Source of the DNA: an uncultured Alphaproteobacteria bacterium
GTDB taxonomy: Bacteria; Pseudomonadota; Alphaproteobacteria; HIMB59; GCA-002718135
DNA: 64,000 nucleotides
Reading direction: 5' to 3'
Assembly (NCBI GenBank): GCA_902635455.1
Contig: CACPNW010000001.1
Location: 5,214 to 69,213 of the forward strand
The notes under the pieces are model-generated. The model did no database searches, was not told the origin of the DNA, and saw nothing but the letters and a program-made list of their open reading frames with translations. The position numbers and the translations under genes are program-made. Position 1 is the first letter of the stretch; every line of letters begins with the position of its first letter. Shown in pieces: positions 23,436 to 62,402 of this stretch.

Positions 23436-24956
23436 ATGACAACTTTTTATGTTACTACTCCTATTTATTATGTAAATGATAAACCTCATATAGGTCATGC
23501 ATATACAACCATTGCTTGTGATATTCTTTCTAGATATCATAAGTTAAAAGGTCATGATGTTTATTTTTTAACAGGCACAGACGAACACGGCCAAAAAGTA
23601 GAAAAGGCTGCTAAAGAATCTTCTTTAGATACAAAAGATTTTGTAAATAAAATGTCAGAAAATTTTAAAAATTTAATTTCATTTTTAGGTTGTGACATTG
23701 ATGATTTTATTAGAACAACAGAAATACGACATATAGAAGCAGCACAACACTTGTGGAACAAACTTAATGATAATAAACAAATTTATTTATCAAATTATGA
23801 AGGGTGGTATTCAGTTAGAGATGAAGCTTTTTATTCAGAGTCAGAATTAATTAAAAAAGATAATTCTTTTTTTACTGATAGCGGATCTCCAGTTGAATGG
23901 CTTAAAGAAGAAAGTTATTTTTTTAAATTATCTTTATGGGAAGAAAAATTATTAGATTTTTATGAAAAATATCCAGAATCTATACAACCTAAAACACGTT
24001 ATAATGAAGTTATTAGCTTTATAAAAAGTGGTTTAAAAGATTTATCCATTTCTAGAACTACTTTTAAATGGGGAATTCCTGTTCCAAATAATTCAAATCA
24101 CGTAATGTATGTATGGATTGATGCTTTGTGCAATTACCTGACTTCTATTGGCTATCCTGATGTCTATGATAGTAAATTTGTAAAATATTGGCCTGCAACT
24201 CATATAGTTGGTAAAGATATTCTAAGATTTCATGCAATATATTGGCCTGCTTTTCTTATGGCTGCAGATATTGAGCCTCCTAAAAAAATATTTGCACATG
24301 GCTGGTGGACTAATGAAGGGCAAAAAATTTCTAAATCTATAGGTAATGTAATTGATCCCTATGATATAATTAATAAATACGGACTTGATCAAATTCGCTT
24401 TTTCTTATTCCGTGAAGTTCCTTTTGGAAATGATGGTGATTTTTCAAAAAATGCAATAGCAAATCGTATAAATGCAGACCTTTCTAATAATTATGGTAAT
24501 TTAGTCCAACGTATTTGTTTGTTTGCAGTTAAAAACTGTAATTCTCTAGTTGATGTCTCTAAAAAATATACTGATTCAGATAATGAATTATTAAAATTTT
24601 GTGAATTTAACTTTTCAAATTATTCGAATTATATGGAATCTCAGCAAATTGATAAAGCATTAAAAAGTATATTTGAAATATTATCTAAAACTAATTCATA
24701 TGTTGATGAACAAGCTCCATGGGAATTAAAGAAAACTAATGCCAATAGAATGAATGATGTATTATTTATAACTCTTAACATTATAAAATTTACTTCTTTG
24801 ATGTTACTCCCAATTATTCCAAAGAGTGCAAATAAAGCTTTAGATATACTTAATATTAATTTAAATGAAAGAAATTTTAGTTTTATGAATATTAAAAATC
24901 AAAATAAATTTCAAATTTTAAATCCAAAACCTATATTTCCTCGAATTGATAAGTGA
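23436..24956 (+). CDS. metG: methionine--tRNA ligase
   Basis: HIGH (PHIGHAY) and KMSKS-type (KISKS) class I motifs. 506 aa, the short form. Confidence 0.95.
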   Translation: MTTFYVTTPIYYVNDKPHIGHAYTTIACDILSRYHKLKGHDVYFLTGTDEHGQKVEKAAKESSLDTKDFVNKMSENFKNLISFLGCDIDDFIRTTEIRHIEAAQHLWNKLNDNKQIYLSNYEGWYSVRDEAFYSESELIKKDNSFFTDSGSPVEWLKEESYFFKLSLWEEKLLDFYEKYPESIQPKTRYNEVISFIKSGLKDLSISRTTFKWGIPVPNNSNHVMYVWIDALCNYLTSIGYPDVYDSKFVKYWPATHIVGKDILRFHAIYWPAFLMAADIEPPKKIFAHGWWTNEGQKISKSIGNVIDPYDIINKYGLDQIRFFLFREVPFGNDGDFSKNAIANRINADLSNNYGNLVQRICLFAVKNCNSLVDVSKKYTDSDNELLKFCEFNFSNYSNYMESQQIDKALKSIFEILSKTNSYVDEQAPWELKKTNANRMNDVLFITLNIIKFTSLMLLPIIPKSANKALDILNINLNERNFSFMNIKNQNKFQILNPKPIFPRIDK

Positions 24957-35439: not shown

Positions 35440-35538
35440 ATGATTATTGTTTGTTTTTTAAGATTTATAATATTATATTATTTTTACTTATTGCACGCAA
35501 AGGCAATAAGTAAATTGATTAAAGGAAACTTTAATTAG
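35440..35538 (+). CDS. candidate 32-codon hydrophobic mini-ORF (leader peptide or small membrane peptide)
   Basis: ATG 35440 to TAG 35536-35538 encodes MIIVCFLRFIILYYFYLLHAKAISKLIKGNFN. It overlaps hairpins 1 and 2 of the structured region and has no clear SD. Confidence 0.25.
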   Translation: MIIVCFLRFIILYYFYLLHAKAISKLIKGNFN

Positions 35539-35600
35539 TTTATATCGGGAGGAAATGCACGATATAGAAGAAAGACCTAGCTTGCTGGGTCTTTTTTTTT
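35483..35600 (+). promoter_or_regulatory. structured RNA element: three stem-loops plus an intrinsic terminator, class unknown
   Basis: Hairpin 1 is 35483-35494/35503-35514 (12 perfect bp, loop ACGCAAAG). Hairpin 2 is 35518-35535 (7 bp, GAAA loop). Hairpin 3 is 35541-35566 (7 bp, loop GGAGGAAATGCA). The terminator then ends 16 nt before the deaminase ATG. Confidence 0.5.
35571..35600 (+). terminator. rho-independent terminator
   Basis: Stem AAAGACCTAG/CTGGGTCTTT with one G-T wobble and loop CTTG, followed by a T run ending at 35600. Confidence 0.7.
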
Positions 35601-36198: not shown

Positions 36199-36232
36199 TC
36201 TACAAATTTGTAATATAAAGATATTTATTATT

Positions 36233-36369
36233 ACGGGAGATACTGCTTTAATGCAGAGCCGAAGGAGCAACGACCCGGAATCTCTCAGGCAAAAGGACCG
36301 TTAAATAGACTCTGGAAAAGAGTTAGGGCTCTACCGAAGGAGTAAAAACTCTCAGGTAAATAGACAGAG
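36233..36369 (+). promoter_or_regulatory. tandem glycine riboswitch
   Basis: Two aptamers each carry the conserved cores: GGGAGA...GCCGAAGGAGCAA...CTCTCAGGCAAAAGGACCG and CTCTGGAAAAGAG...CTACCGAAGGAGTAA...CTCTCAGGTAAATAGACAGAG. They sit directly upstream of gcvT. Confidence 0.9.
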
Positions 36370-57073: not shown

Positions 57074-58141
57074 CTATATTTTTTTTGCTATACTTATTTC
57101 TTTAATATCAGTAATTTTTGTATATCTATCAATCATTTGAGTAGTTTTATGGCCACTCATTTTCATTATTTCATGCGTAGGTACACCATTCATCCTTGCT
57201 TGAGTTATTGATCCAATTCTTAAGCTATGACCTGAAATTTTATTACAATCATTTAAGCCTGCTGCTTCAGCTCTTTTCTTTAAAATTAAAACAAAACTTG
57301 TATCAGTTAAACTTATTTTCTCATTGTTTTCGTTAAGTTCATATTTTCTAATAGAGTTAGCTTTATCAATTCGATAGAAAAGGGGGCCAGTGTTAATCAT
57401 TGATATTTCTAACCAATCATTCAATGCTCTAACTGGACAGTATAATGCCTCTGTATCATCTTTTTTTTGCAAAAATATAACCCTACCTTCACCTTTTTGA
57501 TCTGTTTTAGAAAATGGAATCATAATTTGAATACCTTCGCTATCAAAAGTTAAATGATCATATCTCATGCCAAGTAATTCAGACCTTCTGCAAAAACTAA
57601 AATAACCTACTAATATTAGTGCTTTATCTCTAATATTTTTATAATCATCTTTATTTTCAGGGATTGAGTCTATAATCTGCTCAATATCTTTTCTTAAAAG
57701 CTCTTTTGCTTGTCCAATTTTATTGTTCTTTTCATCTCTAACAATAGCACTAATGGTTTCTGATATGCTTGGATTTTTTCTATCAAACTGAAAACCTCCT
57801 AATCGATATTTGTATGTTATTGATGCTAGTATTCTTTGTATTGTTGAAGCTTTATATGCTGAGGAAGAGTAGGGGTTATTATTTATTTTCTCTCTTCCTG
57901 GAATATTGCTTGAACCCTTAAGTATTTTAGCCTCAGGATCTTCATGTAACCAGTGCATATAGTTTGCTGTCAACGAATAGGCGCTATCTAAGTCATCTAC
58001 CTCTAAAGGTTCACAGTTGTACTTGTTTTTACAATAATCAATAAATTTAAGCCAATCCCCATGATATTTATCTTTTGTATTTTTAGCCTTAGATTTTTCT
58101 CTAAGTTTGCTAACTTTGTCATTTAATGATATTTTAACCAT
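57074..58141 (-). CDS. tyrosine-type site-specific recombinase, Cre-like
   Basis: Catalytic-type residues lie in CRRSEL (Arg), GHSLRIG (HxxR), SGHKT (His) and IDRYT (Tyr). The N-terminal core-binding domain and overall spacing resemble Cre-type recombinases. Confidence 0.88.
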   Translation of the reverse strand: MVKISLNDKVSKLREKSKAKNTKDKYHGDWLKFIDYCKNKYNCEPLEVDDLDSAYSLTANYMHWLHEDPEAKILKGSSNIPGREKINNNPYSSSAYKASTIQRILASITYKYRLGGFQFDRKNPSISETISAIVRDEKNNKIGQAKELLRKDIEQIIDSIPENKDDYKNIRDKALILVGYFSFCRRSELLGMRYDHLTFDSEGIQIMIPFSKTDQKGEGRVIFLQKKDDTEALYCPVRALNDWLEISMINTGPLFYRIDKANSIRKYELNENNEKISLTDTSFVLILKKRAEAAGLNDCNKISGHSLRIGSITQARMNGVPTHEIMKMSGHKTTQMIDRYTKITDIKEISIAKKI

Positions 58142-58150
58142 ATCTATATA

Positions 58151-58174
58151 TTACGATAATTACAGTTATCGTAA
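58151..58174. repeat. 9-6-9 perfect inverted repeat (candidate recombinase core site or operator)
   Basis: TTACGATAA ttacag TTATCGTAA begins 10 nt upstream of the recombinase ATG. The spacer is asymmetric. Confidence 0.5.
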
Positions 58175-58295
58175 ATAATAGTCAAGTTAATATTATTATT
58201 ATATATATTTCAGTAACTTATGATTATTATCTAATTAATATTATCAGACTATAACCTAGATATAGATTTTCACGTGTAATAAAATACTGTATATA

Positions 58296-59030
58296 GTGTG
58301 TAAAATGATAGAATTACCTAAGATTTCTGCGAATTCCCATATCTTTGTATTAACTGGTGCAGGTATAAGTAAAGAGTCTGGTATTGAAACATTTAGAGAT
58401 AATGATAGTCTTTGGAGTAATCATAGAATTCAAGATGTTGCTAGTACTGAGGGATTTGATAGTAACCCTACTCTTGTCTATGATTTTTATAATAAACGTA
58501 GAAAAGAACTAAATTCAGGAATTGAGCCAAATAGGGCTCATATTTTACTTGCTGAATTACAAAAATTATTAAATATCAATATAATAACACAAAATATTGA
58601 TAATTTACATGAGAAAGCAGGAAGTTCATCCATTATTCATATGCATGGAGAGTTAAATAAAGCTAGATGCATTATGAATGATAGTCATGTCTTTAATTGG
58701 TTTGAGGATCTAAATGAGACCCATAGATGCCCTGAATGTAACTATCAAATGCGTCCTCACATTGTGTGGTTTGGTGAGATACCTCTTCAAATGGAAGATA
58801 TTCATGATTTAGCAGAGCAATCTGCCCTCTTCGTCTCAATTGGTACATCCGGTGAAGTTTATCCTGCTGCAGCAGGCTACGTTACTATGTTCAAAGATAT
58901 GCGTAAGCCAACTGTTGAACTAAATTTAGAGCCATCTTGTAATCAAGATCAATTTGATTTTGCAATTCATAAACCTGCAACAGTTGCTATTGAAGAATTT
59001 AAAGATTTATTAATTAAAAATATTAAATAA
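58296..59030 (+). CDS. cobB: NAD-dependent protein deacylase, canonical sirtuin (CobB-like)
   Basis: GAGISKESGIETFR, TQNIDNLH, catalytic His in IHMHGEL, zinc-ribbon remnant RC...CPEC and VWFGE. The likely start is ATG 58305. Confidence 0.85.
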   Translation: MCKMIELPKISANSHIFVLTGAGISKESGIETFRDNDSLWSNHRIQDVASTEGFDSNPTLVYDFYNKRRKELNSGIEPNRAHILLAELQKLLNINIITQNIDNLHEKAGSSSIIHMHGELNKARCIMNDSHVFNWFEDLNETHRCPECNYQMRPHIVWFGEIPLQMEDIHDLAEQSALFVSIGTSGEVYPAAAGYVTMFKDMRKPTVELNLEPSCNQDQFDFAIHKPATVAIEEFKDLLIKNIK

Positions 59031-59095: not shown

Positions 59096-59500
59096 TTAAT
59101 CTTCTGGTCTGATATCTTTTATTATTAACTCAATATCTAAATCAAAATATCTAATAACTTCTTTGATTTTTCTTATGTGTTTTTCAGAATTACCTTTTCT
59201 GATTAATAATAAAATACCTGGTTTTTTATCTGTTTGAGAGGCATAATATAATGATTGTCCTATTGCCTCATAAACTTTCATACCGTCTGCCCAGTCAACT
59301 TCAAATACATGAGTTTCCGTAAGACAATCTACTCTTGATTTATCTTCTAAAGCATAATCAGCATGACCTGACATTTCTTCACAAAATTTTTCACTATAAT
59401 AAGTTTCTTTCTGAATTGCATAAGATGAAAATGATAGAACGCAAAAAAATAATAATAGAAATATTTTTTTTATGAATTTTATCAAAATTACTTTATTCAA
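59096..59500 (-). CDS. secreted hypothetical protein, possible PD-(D/E)xK-like fold
   Basis: The tracked ORF (to 59599) overlaps the upstream gene. TTG 59500, 1 nt after that gene's TAA, gives a 134-aa protein with signal peptide NKVILIKFIKKIFLLLFFCVLSFSSYA. The mature part contains RVDCLT...FEVDWADGMKVYEAIGQSLYY. Confidence 0.5.
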   Translation of the reverse strand: MNKVILIKFIKKIFLLLFFCVLSFSSYAIQKETYYSEKFCEEMSGHADYALEDKSRVDCLTETHVFEVDWADGMKVYEAIGQSLYYASQTDKKPGILLLIRKGNSEKHIRKIKEVIRYFDLDIELIIKDIRPED

Positions 59501-59501
59501 A

Positions 59502-60125
59502 TTAGTTTCTAAAATTGCAATAAGATTTAGCTTTATCAAAGTCAGTTTTTTTGACTGCCCTGGTATTAATTGGTGCCGGATAAGGTTTAGATTTACCATT
59601 TTTATTCATTAATCTTACCCAAACACTATCTTTATTTATAAAGTAACAAAATTGCTGGTATGGATAATCTATTTTATCTGGTTTAAATTTATAACCGGTA
59701 TAAATATTTGCAATAAAACCATTGGATAAAGTCAATTTTCTATCTTGAAAGACAATAAATTCTTCATTTACTTGATTTGGATTCATTTTATTTTGTTCAT
59801 TAAACTTTTTTTGATCTTTAATTATTTTCTCTAACTTATTAATATCCTCTCTTAAATTATAATTTGTAGTATTATATGTTTGGTCTCCATCAACCTTTAT
59901 AATCTGACTTGGTTTTTCAGTATAGAACCAATAGGCTAAACTTAGTAAAAAAACTAAGAGCCCGAGACTAATTAAAAATAAGGTTATATATATTAAATTT
60001 CTCTTTAAGATTTGAGAAGATCTATAACGACGAATTTGTTTTACACGTCTTTGTTCTTCAATAACAAAATTATTTACAGCACTAAAGTCGCTATCTACAC
60101 TTTCAGGTATGTTTGTTTCATTCAT
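59502..60125 (-). CDS. bitopic membrane protein, unknown function
   Basis: 207 aa with a basic N-terminus (RRVKQIRRYRSSQILKR), a single TM (LIYITLFLISLGLLVFLLSLAYWFY) and a C-terminal domain of about 135 aa. ATGA overlap with the upstream gene. Confidence 0.55.
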   Translation of the reverse strand: MNETNIPESVDSDFSAVNNFVIEEQRRVKQIRRYRSSQILKRNLIYITLFLISLGLLVFLLSLAYWFYTEKPSQIIKVDGDQTYNTTNYNLREDINKLEKIIKDQKKFNEQNKMNPNQVNEEFIVFQDRKLTLSNGFIANIYTGYKFKPDKIDYPYQQFCYFINKDSVWVRLMNKNGKSKPYPAPINTRAVKKTDFDKAKSYCNFRN

Positions 60126-62137
60126 TTACTTTTATCTTTTTTATCTTTTTTGTCGTTATTGCTAATATTTAATAAAGCAGGATCATTTGTATAAACAGGT
60201 ATATGAACAGGTTTTAAAATTGTTTTTTCTTTTATTACTTCGGTTGGAACAATTTTATCGACTGGAACTTCTTTGATAACTTCTTTTACAATAGTATCTA
60301 TTTGTTTTACTGTTTTAGTTTCAACTATTTTTTTGATTCTTGGACGTCTAACAAATCTAAGTACTCTAATTAAGTTTGTGCCTAACATAGAATGTCTTTT
60401 TTCTGGATGAACTGTTCTAAGAACTTCAGAGCCAAAAGCTACAGCTGTTCCTGTCATAGCAACAACTAAAGCCATTGCTCCAAACCAAATAGTTTCTGTG
60501 AAATCCAAACAGTCAGATGATATATCAGCTGCAGATTGAGCAGGAATCAGATTATTATCTTCATCTAGCATTCCACACGATGAATACATCCAAAGAGGGA
60601 TTTTTAGGGCAAAATTATGTATTATAGAACTAGTAGATAGAATATTATATTCATCTTTTAAATCTATGTTGTCAGTTTTTATCTTATTTTTTTGATTTTG
60701 AAGTTCTTCAACTTTCACATTCTGTGTTTCTAAACTTTTGATTTTAGAGTCTCTCTCTTCTTCAATTATATTTTTATTTTTATTAAACTCTTCATTAATA
60801 GTATCGTTTTCCTCATCTATTTTTGAAATTAATTGATCAAATTGAGCACCTGTATTGCTTCTTTCAGAGTTTATAATTTCGATATCATTATCAAATTGCA
60901 CATTTATTTTTTTTATTTCTGTCTCTAAATTAGCTAATTCTTCTCTTACTGACTCCGTGTCCTGTGATATTCTTTTTTCAAGTTCAAGATTTAGATTATC
61001 AATTTCTAAATTTATTGACTTTTCTAAATCAATAAACTCTTTATCAATTTGTTTGAGCTCATTGTTGAATTGACTCTCCGCAATTGAGAGATCCTTTGTT
61101 AAATTGCTTGCAATGATAGAAATATCATTCCTTAATTCAGTAATTTGAATAGAAATTTTATCTTGTCTTTCATTAGACTCAGTTTCTCTTTTTTTAATTC
61201 TACCGCGATAACCCCATTTTTTTTCATCTAGTTCTTTATTAATATAGTTTTGCAGATCTCTTTTTTCATTTTCTAATTGTTTTGTTACATTATTTAAGTT
61301 TTCTTTTTTTGTTGCTTCCTCGTTAGATGCATTAAGTCTTTTATTTGCTATTTTTTGCTCATAATTAAATCTTACCTCATCTTTAGCTTTAGATTTGTTA
61401 GAATTAAGAGAGTTTGTTTGTCCAATTTTATTATTAAGTTTATCTCTCAATAATTGCTGAGCTTCAGAATTAGTTTTTTCTCTTAATTCATCTCTTTTTT
61501 CAATATAAGGTTTTAAAATATCATCTCTTCTATTATTTGCTTCTTTTATTTTATTAACATTTTCATCAAGCCTAGTTGACCTTTTGTCTTCATAGGCATC
61601 TATTCTTTCATTTACTTCATTTAAAGCTAGATCTCTTTGATTCTGAAAAAATAAAAGCTTACTCTGAAAATTTTCATTAATTGAATCTTCATTTAAAAGA
61701 CTAATTTCTTCAATTTTAGTATCAATATTATTTATTTTTGCATAATTTTTTTCTAGTTGATTAAGAAGAACATTTTGTTTTTGAGTCATAAAAGTAGAAT
61801 TTATCTCAAAACCAACTAGCATGGACTCAAATGTAACAAACATTACTATTATTAAAAAAGCTGAACCAACAACTTTCCACCAAATTTTAACAGAACGATA
61901 TATTGATATTACCAAAGGAATTCTACTAAGCTCAATTACACCTATTAAGAAGAATAATAAACCAGAGATGTAACCACCCTTTTTAATGGTCTCTTCCGTT
62001 GATAAACCTGTATCACCAAAAACTAAAAAATAACCAATTGAAAAACTAACCAATGCAGCAATAATTTCAATAGCCCAAGCAATTTTTAGTATCTTGTTTG
62101 CAGTTGAGTGATTAAGGTCTATTGTTGGCCTGCTCAT
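60122..62137 (-). CDS. large polytopic membrane protein with ~400-aa coiled-coil region, unknown function
   Basis: 671 aa. Three N-terminal TM segments are followed by about 400 aa of heptad-like K/E/N/D/L-rich sequence. One or two C-terminal TM segments flank a Cys pair, and the protein ends in a basic, K-rich tail. Confidence 0.6.
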   Translation of the reverse strand: MSRPTIDLNHSTANKILKIAWAIEIIAALVSFSIGYFLVFGDTGLSTEETIKKGGYISGLLFFLIGVIELSRIPLVISIYRSVKIWWKVVGSAFLIIVMFVTFESMLVGFEINSTFMTQKQNVLLNQLEKNYAKINNIDTKIEEISLLNEDSINENFQSKLLFFQNQRDLALNEVNERIDAYEDKRSTRLDENVNKIKEANNRRDDILKPYIEKRDELREKTNSEAQQLLRDKLNNKIGQTNSLNSNKSKAKDEVRFNYEQKIANKRLNASNEEATKKENLNNVTKQLENEKRDLQNYINKELDEKKWGYRGRIKKRETESNERQDKISIQITELRNDISIIASNLTKDLSIAESQFNNELKQIDKEFIDLEKSINLEIDNLNLELEKRISQDTESVREELANLETEIKKINVQFDNDIEIINSERSNTGAQFDQLISKIDEENDTINEEFNKNKNIIEEERDSKIKSLETQNVKVEELQNQKNKIKTDNIDLKDEYNILSTSSIIHNFALKIPLWMYSSCGMLDEDNNLIPAQSAADISSDCLDFTETIWFGAMALVVAMTGTAVAFGSEVLRTVHPEKRHSMLGTNLIRVLRFVRRPRIKKIVETKTVKQIDTIVKEVIKEVPVDKIVPTEVIKEKTILKPVHIPVYTNDPALLNISNNDKKDKKDKSK

Positions 62138-62183
62138 ATTTAGAGCAAAAAACTATCACAACTATAATAATAATAAATAATTA

Positions 62184-62402
62184 TTAATTACAAAATTCAT
62201 CCTTTTGTTGATAGACACATAAGAAAGTTTTTTGCTTTTCTTTTTCAAGCAGTATTAAGTTATTTATTATTCTTTCTTCCTTCATTTTCTCATTATATCC
62301 TTCAAGAAATCCCTGACTAAAACTCATAGCTTCAGTACTACATCCTGACAAATATAATGAAAATATTGAAATTATTAGAAAATATAGAATTTTTTTCTGC
62401 AT
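62184..62402 (-). CDS. small lipoprotein, unknown function
   Basis: 72 aa with a signal peptide carrying the lipobox LSGC. It is the first gene of the minus-strand cluster. Confidence 0.5.
   Translation of the reverse strand: MQKKILYFLIISIFSLYLSGCSTEAMSFSQGFLEGYNEKMKEERIINNLILLEKEKQKTFLCVYQQKDEFCN

What the first reader, a model, noticed from the sequence alone, without database searches (positions are those of the whole stretch)
58151..58174. lox/dif-style 9-6-9 inverted repeat abutting the recombinase gene
TTACGATAA-ttacag-TTATCGTAA is a perfect 9-bp inverted repeat around an asymmetric 6-bp spacer. That is the geometry of tyrosine-recombinase core sites (two arm-binding half-sites flanking a 6-8 bp crossover region). 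It starts 10 nt upstream of the recombinase ATG. It could therefore be the recombination core (attL/attP-type), an autoregulatory operator, or both. Flanking bases extend the symmetry only partially (12 of 15).
Basis: seen in the sequence. Interest (0 to 1): 0.55.

Follow-up and report, generated by a model that had tools for sequence, protein, structure and literature searches.

The report
Lox-like site at SAR11 recombinase promoter
The palindrome is almost certainly the lox-type docking site of the neighbouring Cre-like recombinase, kept unchanged in SAR11 marine bacteria and lying on that gene's own promoter; it may be the chromosome-untangling (dif-like) site these bacteria were thought to lack, but that role is not shown.

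Summary
The repeat TTACGATAA-ttacag-TTATCGTAA is at 58151-58174, 10 nt before the ATG of a minus-strand tyrosine recombinase (57074-58141). Taken alone it is not above chance: the 26% GC window has 22 such 9-bp palindromes, shuffles give 18±4. Comparison makes it real. In 10 orthologous Pelagibacteraceae (SAR11) loci, 22 of 24 columns are invariant inside a variable spacer. A clade with about 49% identical protein keeps both arms and changes only the spacer. The same arms abut the 5' end of distant (about 30% identical) recombinase genes in unrelated contigs of 31-63% GC. The recombinase is Cre-like by sequence (5e-10) and by fold (top 31 PDB hits), with the catalytic residues conserved. Read as 13-8-13, the site shows features reported for Cre-type targets. 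It overlaps the gene's promoter (TTGACT-18-AATTAT), so autorepression is inferred. Only one copy is seen per locus, always between the recombinase and a Sir2 gene, so it is not an island border. My best reading is a chromosomal Cre/lox-type module that recombines sister copies (XerS/XerH-like dimer resolution). A terminus position and absence of XerCD could not be tested, and two sister clades lack the site. Podophages related to pelagiphages carry the same site without a recombinase.

The parts
58151..58174 (.). Perfect 9-6-9 inverted repeat: the conserved core of the recombinase binding/crossover site
   Evidence: Read directly. Unique in the window. 22 of 24 columns are invariant in 10 orthologous loci. 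The arms are identical in the P0292 clade with a different spacer. The same arms abut other recombinase genes.
58146..58179 (.). Full 34-bp lox-type site read as 13-8-13: ATATATTACGATA / ATTACAGT / TATCGTAAATAAT. The outer arm positions are symmetric at only 10 of 13.
   Evidence: Direct reading. Arms extend to 13-14 bp in related modules (L053, L061, L094, L095, L085). GATA next to the spacer and T at arm position 7 are the features reported for active Cre-type targets (PMC10250229).
58180..58185 (-). -35 hexamer TTGACT of the recombinase promoter
   Evidence: Consensus scan. Invariant or TTGACA in all relatives, including clades without the repeat.
58156..58164 (-). Extended -10 element TGT-AATTAT, lying inside the spacer and the promoter-proximal arm of the repeat
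   Evidence: TTGACT, 18 nt, AATTAT, with TG before the second hexamer. In the P0292 clade the -35-to-repeat distance is 1 nt shorter, giving a 17-nt spacer to the same AATTAT.
57074..58141 (-). Cre-like tyrosine recombinase, 355 aa: the protein inferred to bind the site
   Evidence: Pfam Phage_integrase 1e-14. No NCBIfam cut-off is met. The best PDB sequence match is Cre, 2e-5 alone and 5e-10 as a family profile. An AF2 model with pLDDT 83 gives Cre as Foldseek hits 1-31. The catalytic residues are invariant or nearly so in 37 sequences.

Best explanation
The repeat is the lox-type target of the adjacent Cre-like tyrosine recombinase. One monomer would bind each arm (core TTACGATAA, about 13 bp in all), and the asymmetric central bases would be the crossover region. 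The site lies across the spacer, extended -10 and start region of the recombinase's own sigma-70 promoter. A bound dimer should therefore shut off transcription, making the module self-limiting (inferred). The gene is a vertically inherited, strongly conserved chromosomal gene of Pelagibacteraceae (SAR11), and only one site per locus was seen. The only partner normally available is therefore the sister copy after replication. I therefore propose that it works like the single-recombinase dimer-resolution modules XerS/difSL and XerH/difH, but is built from a Cre-family enzyme. Shown: the sequence, its conservation, its linkage to recombinase genes, the Cre-like nature of the enzyme, the promoter overlap and the single copy per locus. 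Inferred: binding, repression, strand exchange and the dimer-resolution role. My sub-probabilities are about 0.9 for a recombinase binding site, about 0.7 for a true crossover site, about 0.6 for an additional operator role, and about 0.45 for chromosome dimer resolution as the physiological role.
For: (1) Conservation. The core ACGATAA-CTGTAA-TTATCGT is invariant upstream of orthologues down to 65% protein identity. 22 of 24 columns are invariant, against 15% in the adjacent spacer DNA.
(2) A clade whose protein is about 49% identical (L030-L032) keeps both arms exactly and changes only the spacer, CTGTAA to GTATAA. This is the pattern expected for a site bound by a dimer.
(3) An exact-arm scan of metagenomes, with the host spacer excluded, gave 66 contigs of 25-63% GC. 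At least 9 have a tyrosine-recombinase ORF whose 5' end lies 1-52 nt from the site, and 4 more have one within 300-800 nt. Arms often extend to 13-14 bp.
(4) Five of the six plasmid-borne relatives inspected have a lox-like repeat of the form ..CGATAA / ..GGATAA / ..CGACAA-N6-8 upstream of the gene.
(5) The enzyme is Cre-like and its catalytic residues are conserved.
(6) Read as 14-6-14, the arms resemble loxP: the phage version ATAACTTACGATAA matches ATAACTTCGTATAA at 11 of 14 positions by direct comparison. The site also carries the GATA-next-to-spacer and T7 features reported for Cre-type targets (PMC10250229).
(7) Promoter overlap.
(8) There is one copy per locus, always between the recombinase and Sir2. 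The family was not found in IMG/VR.
(9) The recombinase is more conserved than MetG between the same genomes: 83% against 71% for AG-422-E02.
(10) P. ubique was reported to have no dif/Xer system (PMC2731167).
Against: As a bare palindrome the repeat is not above chance in this AT-rich window. No terminus position could be shown. GC skew in the window is explained by coding strand alone. The only hint is a change in strand-independent AT3 skew across the site in related loci, from few and non-independent genes. Two sister clades of the same recombinase (L025-L028 and L029) have the gene and the Sir2 neighbour but no recognisable lox-like repeat within the short contigs. The whole promoter block, and also the Sir2-side block, is conserved, so part of the spacer conservation could reflect promoter function. 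P. ubique HTCC1062 does carry a gene annotated xerD (PMC3090418), and I could not establish its relation to this family. Whether this genome has XerC/XerD or FtsK could not be checked. No binding or recombination data exist.
Confidence: 0.6

Rival explanations
1. Operator only. The recombinase, or a catalytically irrelevant use of it, binds the palindrome to repress its own promoter. Its real recombination sites lie elsewhere or are supplied by incoming DNA.
For: The repeat covers the promoter spacer, the extended -10 and the start region. The -35 element persists in clades that have lost the repeat. The gene-adjacent position in many relatives is also what an autoregulatory site would show.
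Against: The arms and geometry are those of Cre-type crossover sites. Catalytic residues are strictly conserved, so some crossover site must exist, and none other was seen. In plasmid relatives the repeat lies 60-230 nt upstream of the ATG, not necessarily on a promoter. An operator role and a crossover role are not exclusive.
Confidence: 0.2
2. Docking site (attB-like) for lox-bearing mobile DNA. The chromosomal site and recombinase serve, or are exploited by, phages or plasmids that carry the same site but no recombinase, in the manner of IMEX elements. This could be for integration or for phage genome cyclisation and multimer resolution.
For: A group of podophages has TerL about 49% identical to HTVC010P-type pelagiphages. 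They carry the identical arms with a 6-bp spacer between terS and terL. No recombinase is present in the DNA held.
Against: The phage spacers (CTTTAA, CTTTTA, GTTTTA, CATTTA, GGATTA, GGATAA) never equal the host spacers (CTGTAA, GTATAA). No contig shows phage genes next to the host recombinase or Sir2, and none shows two sites flanking an insert. The same arms occur in many unrelated bacteria, so the phage-host match is not specific. The hosts of these phages are unknown, and parts of their genomes were not available.
Confidence: 0.12
3. No dedicated site. The palindrome is a by-product of a conserved promoter, or it forms an RNA or DNA hairpin (for example a 5' leader structure).
For: Palindromes of this size are as common as chance predicts in the window. 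The neighbouring Sir2-side promoter block is equally conserved. The 45-nt stretch can fold at -10.6 kcal/mol, z = -3.1.
Against: The identical arms lie beside distantly related recombinase genes in genomes of up to 63% GC, where such AT-rich palindromes are very unlikely. The arms never show compensatory changes, and only the spacer varies. The predicted transcript would start downstream of most of the repeat. There is no Rfam match.
Confidence: 0.05

Closest known systems
Cre/loxP of phage P1 and other Cre-type recombinase/target pairs (Dre/rox, Vika/vox, and the pairs of Jelicic et al. 2023, PMC10250229)
   Same: The enzyme's best sequence and structural matches are Cre. The target is an inverted repeat close to the gene. 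The 13-8-13 reading, GATA beside the spacer, T at arm position 7 and an asymmetric spacer all fit (and direct reading).
   Different: The module is chromosomal, vertically inherited and syntenic in a free-living streamlined bacterium, not on a phage or plasmid. Only 9 bp of each arm are strictly symmetric here. The site sits on the gene's own promoter. The protein is only 16-18% identical to Cre in the structural alignments and has an N-terminal region that matches only the closest clades.
Single-recombinase chromosome dimer resolution modules XerS/difSL (streptococci, lactococci) and XerH/difH (Helicobacter, Campylobacter)
   Same: There is one recombinase of about 355 aa, genetically linked to a single palindromic AT-rich site with a 6-bp centre, forming a self-contained module in a chromosome (PMC2731167). 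The inner ATAA-N6-TTAT is shared with dif sites (from my own knowledge of E. coli dif).
   Different: It is not homologous at family level. The XerD model scores 47 bits against a cut-off of 329.6, and there is no XerS hit. XerH structures rank below all Cre entries. A terminus position and FtsK control are untested.
Plasmid multimer-resolution tyrosine recombinases with an adjacent site (for example F-plasmid ResD/rfsF and Salmonella RsdB/rfsF)
   Same: Relatives of this protein occur on 1854 PLSDB plasmids, usually one per plasmid, with a lox-like repeat upstream in five of six inspected. One metagenomic module sits beside a KfrA plasmid gene. From memory (Lane et al. 1986, not verified here), the F D protein is both a repressor and a resolvase at its site, which would be a precedent for the dual role.
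   Different: F ResD itself is only marginally similar (BLASTP E = 0.001 over 49 aa). The SAR11 module is on the chromosome.
Canonical XerC/XerD-dif
   Same: It is a tyrosine recombinase acting, as proposed, on a single chromosomal palindrome with a 6-bp central region.
   Different: There is one protein rather than two. It falls far below the XerC/XerD family thresholds. The arms differ from the dif consensus outside ATAA/TTAT.

Membership tests
Cre-type tyrosine recombinase with lox-type target | Catalytic R-K-H-R-(H/W)-Y set present | tested here: met
   R186, K212, H305, R308 and Y340 are invariant and H331 is nearly invariant in 37 family members. They align with Cre R173, K201, H289, R292, W315 and Y324.
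Cre-type tyrosine recombinase with lox-type target | Closest characterised relative by sequence and fold is Cre | tested here: met
   phmmer gives 2e-5 and the family profile gives 5e-10 to Cre, against 2e-5 to XerD/XerA. Foldseek ranks 1-31 are all Cre or Tre.
Cre-type tyrosine recombinase with lox-type target | Palindromic target of two ~13-bp arms around an 8-bp spacer within 1 kb of the gene | tested here: met
   58146-58179 reads as 13-8-13 with 10 of 13 arm symmetry (9 perfect), 5 nt from the ATG. Related modules have 13-14 bp arms.
Cre-type tyrosine recombinase with lox-type target | Recombination between two copies of the site | not testable with these tools
   This needs a two-site plasmid assay or an in vitro reaction.
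Single-recombinase Xer-like dimer resolution module (XerS/difSL, XerH/difH type) | One recombinase gene genetically linked to one site | tested here: met
   There is one site per locus in 26 loci, next to the gene in the main clade and the P0292 clade. It is NOT seen in clades P0300 and P0298.
Single-recombinase Xer-like dimer resolution module (XerS/difSL, XerH/difH type) | Site at the replication terminus | tested here: inconclusive
   GC skew is explained by gene strand. The AT3 offset changes sign across the site in related loci, but from few non-independent genes. The contig beyond the window could not be fetched.
Single-recombinase Xer-like dimer resolution module (XerS/difSL, XerH/difH type) | No XerC/XerD-dif in the same genome | not testable with these tools
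   There was no whole-genome access. The literature is mixed: Carnoy and Roten report no dif/Xer in P. ubique, while a gene annotated xerD exists in HTCC1062.
Single-recombinase Xer-like dimer resolution module (XerS/difSL, XerH/difH type) | Sequence membership in XerS or XerH families | tested here: not met
   There is no XerS hit, and XerD/XerC/XerA models score 36-47 bits against cut-offs of 220-335. XerH ranks 35 or lower in the fold search.
Phage/ICE integrase with attL/attR | Gene at the edge of an inserted element flanked by two copies of the core, often in a tRNA gene | tested here: not met
   There is no second copy in the window or in ±6-10 kb of the relatives. Both flanks are syntenic. 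The tRNA genes lie 40-47 kb away. The family is absent from IMG/VR.
Canonical XerC/XerD | Score above the NCBIfam equivalog thresholds | tested here: not met
   XerD scores 47 bits against 329.6, and XerC scores 36 against 335.

The most novel reading that the evidence does not exclude
SAR11, the most abundant bacterial lineage in the ocean and reported to lack Xer/dif, resolves chromosome dimers with a domesticated Cre-family recombinase. This enzyme would act on a lox-like site embedded in its own promoter. A group of pelagiphage-like podoviruses would carry the same site next to their packaging genes, so as to borrow the host enzyme for genome cyclisation or multimer resolution. That is the P1 Cre/loxP logic with the recombinase outsourced to the host.
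Probability: 0.25. Interest if true: 0.8.

Novelty: new variant of a known kind. Interest (0 to 1): 0.58.

Why it matters
Chromosome dimer resolution is nearly universal in bacteria with circular chromosomes. P. ubique was listed among the few free-living exceptions (PMC2731167). A conserved Cre-family recombinase with its own lox-like site in SAR11 would fill that gap. It would also add a third, independently recruited single-recombinase solution beside XerS and XerH. The site gives a precise and testable marker: a 34-mer with variants. It could be used to locate the terminus in uncultured SAR11 genomes and to look for elements that exploit it. The enzyme/target pair, and the wider family sharing the TTACGATAA arms, are also candidate new Cre-type tools with a 6-bp crossover core.

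Tried and rejected
(1) Statistical significance of the palindrome alone was rejected: 22 observed against 18±4 expected.
(2) Second copy or half-site clusters in the window: none.
(3) tRNA-linked island border: the tRNA genes are 40-47 kb away and the flanks are syntenic.
(4) Replication terminus by skew. A regression of gene-level GC, GC3, AT and AT3 skew on strand and side gave no GC signal and only a weak AT3 hint.
(5) Extending the window along its 118-kb source contig failed, because the proteins are not indexed.
(6) Recombinase relatives in viral contigs: none for three queries.
(7) An equivalent repeat upstream of TerL in the isolated pelagiphages HTVC010P and HTVC024P: not seen.
(8) A literature search for the arm sequence returned only primers. 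Searches for SAR11 with chromosome dimer, tyrosine recombinase or XerD found no description of this system.
(9) Known RNA family or terminator at the site: none.
(10) F-plasmid ResD as a close relative: only marginal similarity.
(11) Inferring a terminus position from HTCC1062, where gcvT lies at 49.7% of the genome, was set aside. The window and relative L020 differ by a 27-kb block that contains gcvTHP, and I could not verify that the origin is at coordinate 1.
(12) Supplementary target tables of Jelicic et al. are not held.

Full report
**Observation.**
The window reads TTACGATAA (58151-58159), ttacag (58160-58165), TTATCGTAA (58166-58174). The only long ORF abutting it is a 355-aa minus-strand gene, 57074-58141, whose ATG is 10 nt from the repeat. 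On the other side, transcribed divergently, is a Sir2-family deacetylase gene (58296/58306-59030). The 24-mer is unique in the window with up to three mismatches, with or without a free spacer.

The window is 20-35% G+C per kb, so palindromes are cheap. I counted 22 places with a perfect inverted repeat of at least 9 bp and a spacer of at most 12, against 18.0±4.0 in dinucleotide shuffles. For arms with at least two G/C the figures are 4 observed against 4.9 expected.

**Organism and gene.**
The window carries core genes: uvrA, gyrA, recG, mfd, metG, gcvP and secD. It also has a glycine riboswitch before gcvT. Its MetG relatives that carry an organism name are labelled Pelagibacteraceae, so this is a SAR11 genome fragment, part of a 118-kb NCBI contig.

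The 355-aa protein is a tyrosine recombinase (Pfam Phage_integrase). It reaches no curated NCBIfam threshold: XerD scores 47 bits against 329.6. Its best solved relative by sequence is Cre, at 2e-5 alone and 5e-10 as a 37-sequence family profile, against 2e-5 for XerD and XerA. An AlphaFold model (pLDDT 83) has Cre or Tre as its first 31 Foldseek hits, followed by XerA, IntI and XerH. R186, K212, H305, R308 and Y340 are invariant and H331 is nearly invariant across the family, so the enzyme should be catalytically active.

At the 50% identity cluster level, only three other clusters match over the full length. After those come thousands of roughly 320-aa integrases that match residues ~93-350 at 33-42% identity.

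**Comparative evidence for the site.**
- Five single-cell genomes and several metagenomic contigs encode orthologues of 65-91% identity.
- In all of those that extend far enough, the gene faces a Sir2 gene across a spacer of about 155 bp.
- In that spacer the middle is highly variable, but two blocks are fixed. One is C-TTGACT-(5-6 nt)-[T/G]TACGATAA-CTGTAA-TTATCGTA[A/T]. The other lies next to Sir2.
- Over ten loci, 22 of the 24 repeat columns are invariant (mean conservation 0.98). In the variable middle, 15% of columns are invariant (mean 0.74).
- A more distant clade (P0292, about 49% identical to the window protein) has TTGACA-TTAT-TTACGATAA-GTATAA-TTATCGTAA. Both arms are identical and the spacer differs.
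- Two further clades (P0300 and P0298, 40-55% identical) keep the Sir2 neighbour and, in P0300, the -35 hexamer. They show no lox-like repeat in their short contigs.

**The same arms elsewhere.**
I scanned the JGI metagenome collection for TTACGATAA-NNHDNN-TTATCGTAA. This pattern excludes the abundant host spacer on both strands. It returned 66 contigs with G+C from 0.25 to 0.63.

I then ran an HMM built from the recombinase family against all ORFs of these contigs and of the 14 viral-contig hits.
- Recombinase ORFs have their 5' end 1-52 nt from the site in L038, L051, L053, L061, L069, L085, L094, L095 and L100.
- They lie 300-800 nt away in L039, L048, L049 and L052.
- In these modules the symmetry extends to 13-14 bp. 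Examples are ATTACTTACGATAA-N6-TTATCGTAAGTAAT about 15 nt before the ATG in L053, L061 and L095, and TTTACTTACGATAA in the 58% G+C contig L094.
- The proteins are only about 30-37% identical to the window protein.

An AT-rich palindrome with identical arms, beside distantly related recombinase genes in GC-rich DNA, cannot be chance. It ties the repeat to the recombinase rather than to some other factor.

Relatives of the protein occur on 1854 plasmids of PLSDB. Of six inspected, five have a lox-like repeat 60-230 nt upstream of the gene:
- TAATGTCCGACAA-ATTTAC-TTGTCGGACATTA
- TAACTTCCGATAA-N8-TTATCGGAAGTTA
- AACTTGCGAGAA-N6-TTATCGCAAGTT
- TAACGTTCGATAA-N7-TTATCGAACGTTA
- TTTACCCCGGATAA-N7-TTATCCGAGGTAAA

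One metagenomic module sits beside a KfrA plasmid gene. Another sits among housekeeping peptidase genes on a 336-kb contig.

**Relation to lox.**
Read as 13-8-13, the window site is ATATATTACGATA / ATTACAGT / TATCGTAAATAAT (58146-58179). Read as 14-6-14, loxP is ATAACTTCGTATAA-TGTATG-C.... The phage and metagenome arms ATAA[C/G]TTACGATAA match the loxP arm at 11 of 14 positions, and the window arms match fewer (direct comparison; the loxP sequence is from my own knowledge and PMC10250229). Jelicic et al. report that targets of active Cre-type enzymes share a G(T)-A-T(G)-A motif next to the spacer and a T at arm position 7. Both features are present here. The dif resemblance is limited to the inner ATAA-N6-TTAT and the 6-bp centre.

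**Promoter overlap.**
A consensus scan finds TTGACT, 18 nt, AATTAT preceded by TG on the minus strand (58185-58156). The upstream arm lies in the promoter spacer. The central CTGTAA supplies the TG and the start of the -10. The downstream arm covers the rest of the -10 and the start region.

In the P0292 clade the distance from the -35 to the repeat is one base shorter, giving a 17-nt spacer to the same AATTAT. A protein dimer on the repeat would occlude RNA polymerase, so autorepression is a reasonable inference. It is untested.

Because the transcript should begin near the end of the repeat, an RNA hairpin role is unlikely. The 45-mer could fold at -10.6 kcal/mol. However, no compensatory changes are seen in the arms and no Rfam family matches.

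**What the module does.**
It is not an element border.
- Both flanks are syntenic.
- There is a single copy per locus.
- No copy occurs elsewhere in the window.
- The recombinase family was not found in IMG/VR.

The recombinase is better conserved than housekeeping neighbours. It is 83% identical against 71% for MetG in the same pair of genomes, and usually more conserved than Sir2.

An active Cre-like enzyme with one chromosomal site can recombine only with the sister copy or with incoming DNA that carries the site. The first option is chromosome dimer resolution. This is the known logic of XerS/difSL and XerH/difH, where the site is linked to the gene (PMC2731167). The same paper lists P. 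ubique as lacking dif/Xer.

Three things temper this reading.
- HTCC1062 has a gene annotated xerD that is light-induced together with recA (PMC3090418). I could not relate it to this family.
- I could not show a terminus position. GC skew in the window follows coding strand only. The strand-independent AT3 offset changes from +0.032±0.010 on the recombinase side to -0.015±0.012 on the Sir2 side in related loci, but this rests on few and phylogenetically non-independent genes.
- Two sister clades lack the linked site.

I therefore give the dimer-resolution role about 0.45. I give the identification of the repeat as the recombinase's lox-type site about 0.9.

**Phages.**
The exact arms with a 6-bp spacer also occur in a group of AT-rich podovirus contigs: L007, L008, L009, L013, L014 and L018, plus L037, L059, L077, L080, L089, L091 and L092.
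- The site lies in the gap between an Sf6-type small terminase gene and a small ORF followed by the large terminase.
- Their TerL is about 49% identical to HTVC010P-type pelagiphages.
- No recombinase is present in the DNA held.
- Their spacers (CTTTAA, CTTTTA, GTTTTA, CATTTA, GGATTA, GGATAA) differ from the host spacers. Like the host spacers, they read S-N-N-T-W-A in one orientation.

A lox-like site beside the packaging genes recalls loxP near pac in P1, where it promotes cyclisation of terminally redundant DNA (my own knowledge). Here the enzyme would have to come from the host. This is speculative. The hosts are unknown, the genomes are incomplete, and the arms are shared by many bacteria.

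**Verdict.**
The interpretation as a recombinase core site that may double as an operator is supported. The attL/attP reading is not. The kind is known: a Cre-type recombinase with an adjacent lox-type target, and single-recombinase chromosomal modules. What is unusual is a domesticated, strongly conserved chromosomal version in SAR11, placed on its own promoter, with matching sites in pelagiphage-like phages.

Noticed in passing
L018:2102-2125, L007:531-554, L008:9451-9474, L009:2986-3009, L092:2057-2080 and relatives: A group of podophage contigs (TerL about 49% identical to HTVC010P-type pelagiphages) carries the identical TTACGATAA-N6-TTATCGTAA site, with arms symmetric to 12-13 of 14. It lies between an Sf6-type small terminase gene and the large terminase operon. 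No recombinase is present in the DNA held. The spacers differ among the phages and from the host.
   Followed up: partly
window 58262-58305: A second invariant block sits in the same spacer (CTAGATATAGATTTTCACGTGTAATAAAATACTGTATATAGTGT). It contains a CACGTG palindrome and a predicted Sir2 promoter (TTCACG-17-TATAGT). A CAC[G/A]TGAAA core persists in distant clades at about 100-145 nt from the recombinase start, while its distance to Sir2 varies from about 27 to about 400 nt. It may therefore be more than the Sir2 promoter.
   Followed up: partly
L036, L048, L068, L084, L101, L075, L041, L038 (metagenome contigs, G+C 0.51-0.63): GC-rich contigs carry [C/G]TATTACGATAA-N6-TTATCGTAAT. Several share a GTTTAG/GTTTAC motif about 15-20 nt outside one arm, as if they were homologous elements. 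L038 has a 574-aa recombinase-like ORF starting 13 nt from the site.
   Followed up: no
window 26487-53188: A block of about 27 kb (selO, gcvTHP, metY and others) lies between the lactamase_B-fold gene and the 3-hydroxyisobutyrate-dehydrogenase-like gene. In relative L020 those two genes are adjacent. Gene order near the recombinase is therefore not fixed among SAR11 clades.
   Followed up: no
window 59096-62402: Beyond Sir2 lie minus-strand genes with no Pfam or PHROG match: 167 aa, 207 aa, a 671-aa coiled-coil membrane protein and a 72-aa lipoprotein-like ORF. They are mostly absent from close relatives (only L005 has the 167-aa gene). This looks like the edge of a variable region.
   Followed up: partly
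window 35487-35566 and 36224-36310: An IMES-4 RNA motif (100 bits) and a glycine riboswitch aptamer (66 bits) lie upstream of gcvT, as in P. ubique HTCC1062.
   Followed up: no
window 57074-58141 compared with 23436-24956: The recombinase is more conserved between SAR11 genomes than methionyl-tRNA synthetase. For AG-422-E02 the figures are 83% against 71%. The best non-self hits are about 90% against 76%.
   Followed up: partly
L102-L107 (plasmids of Rickettsiales Ac37b, Skermanella, Roseomonas, Protochlamydia, Hymenobacter): Plasmid-borne relatives of the recombinase (1854 PLSDB records) usually have their own perfect or near-perfect 12-14 bp inverted repeat, with a 6-8 bp centre, upstream of the gene. 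Several sit next to toxin-antitoxin genes. They look like unannotated multimer-resolution modules.
   Followed up: partly
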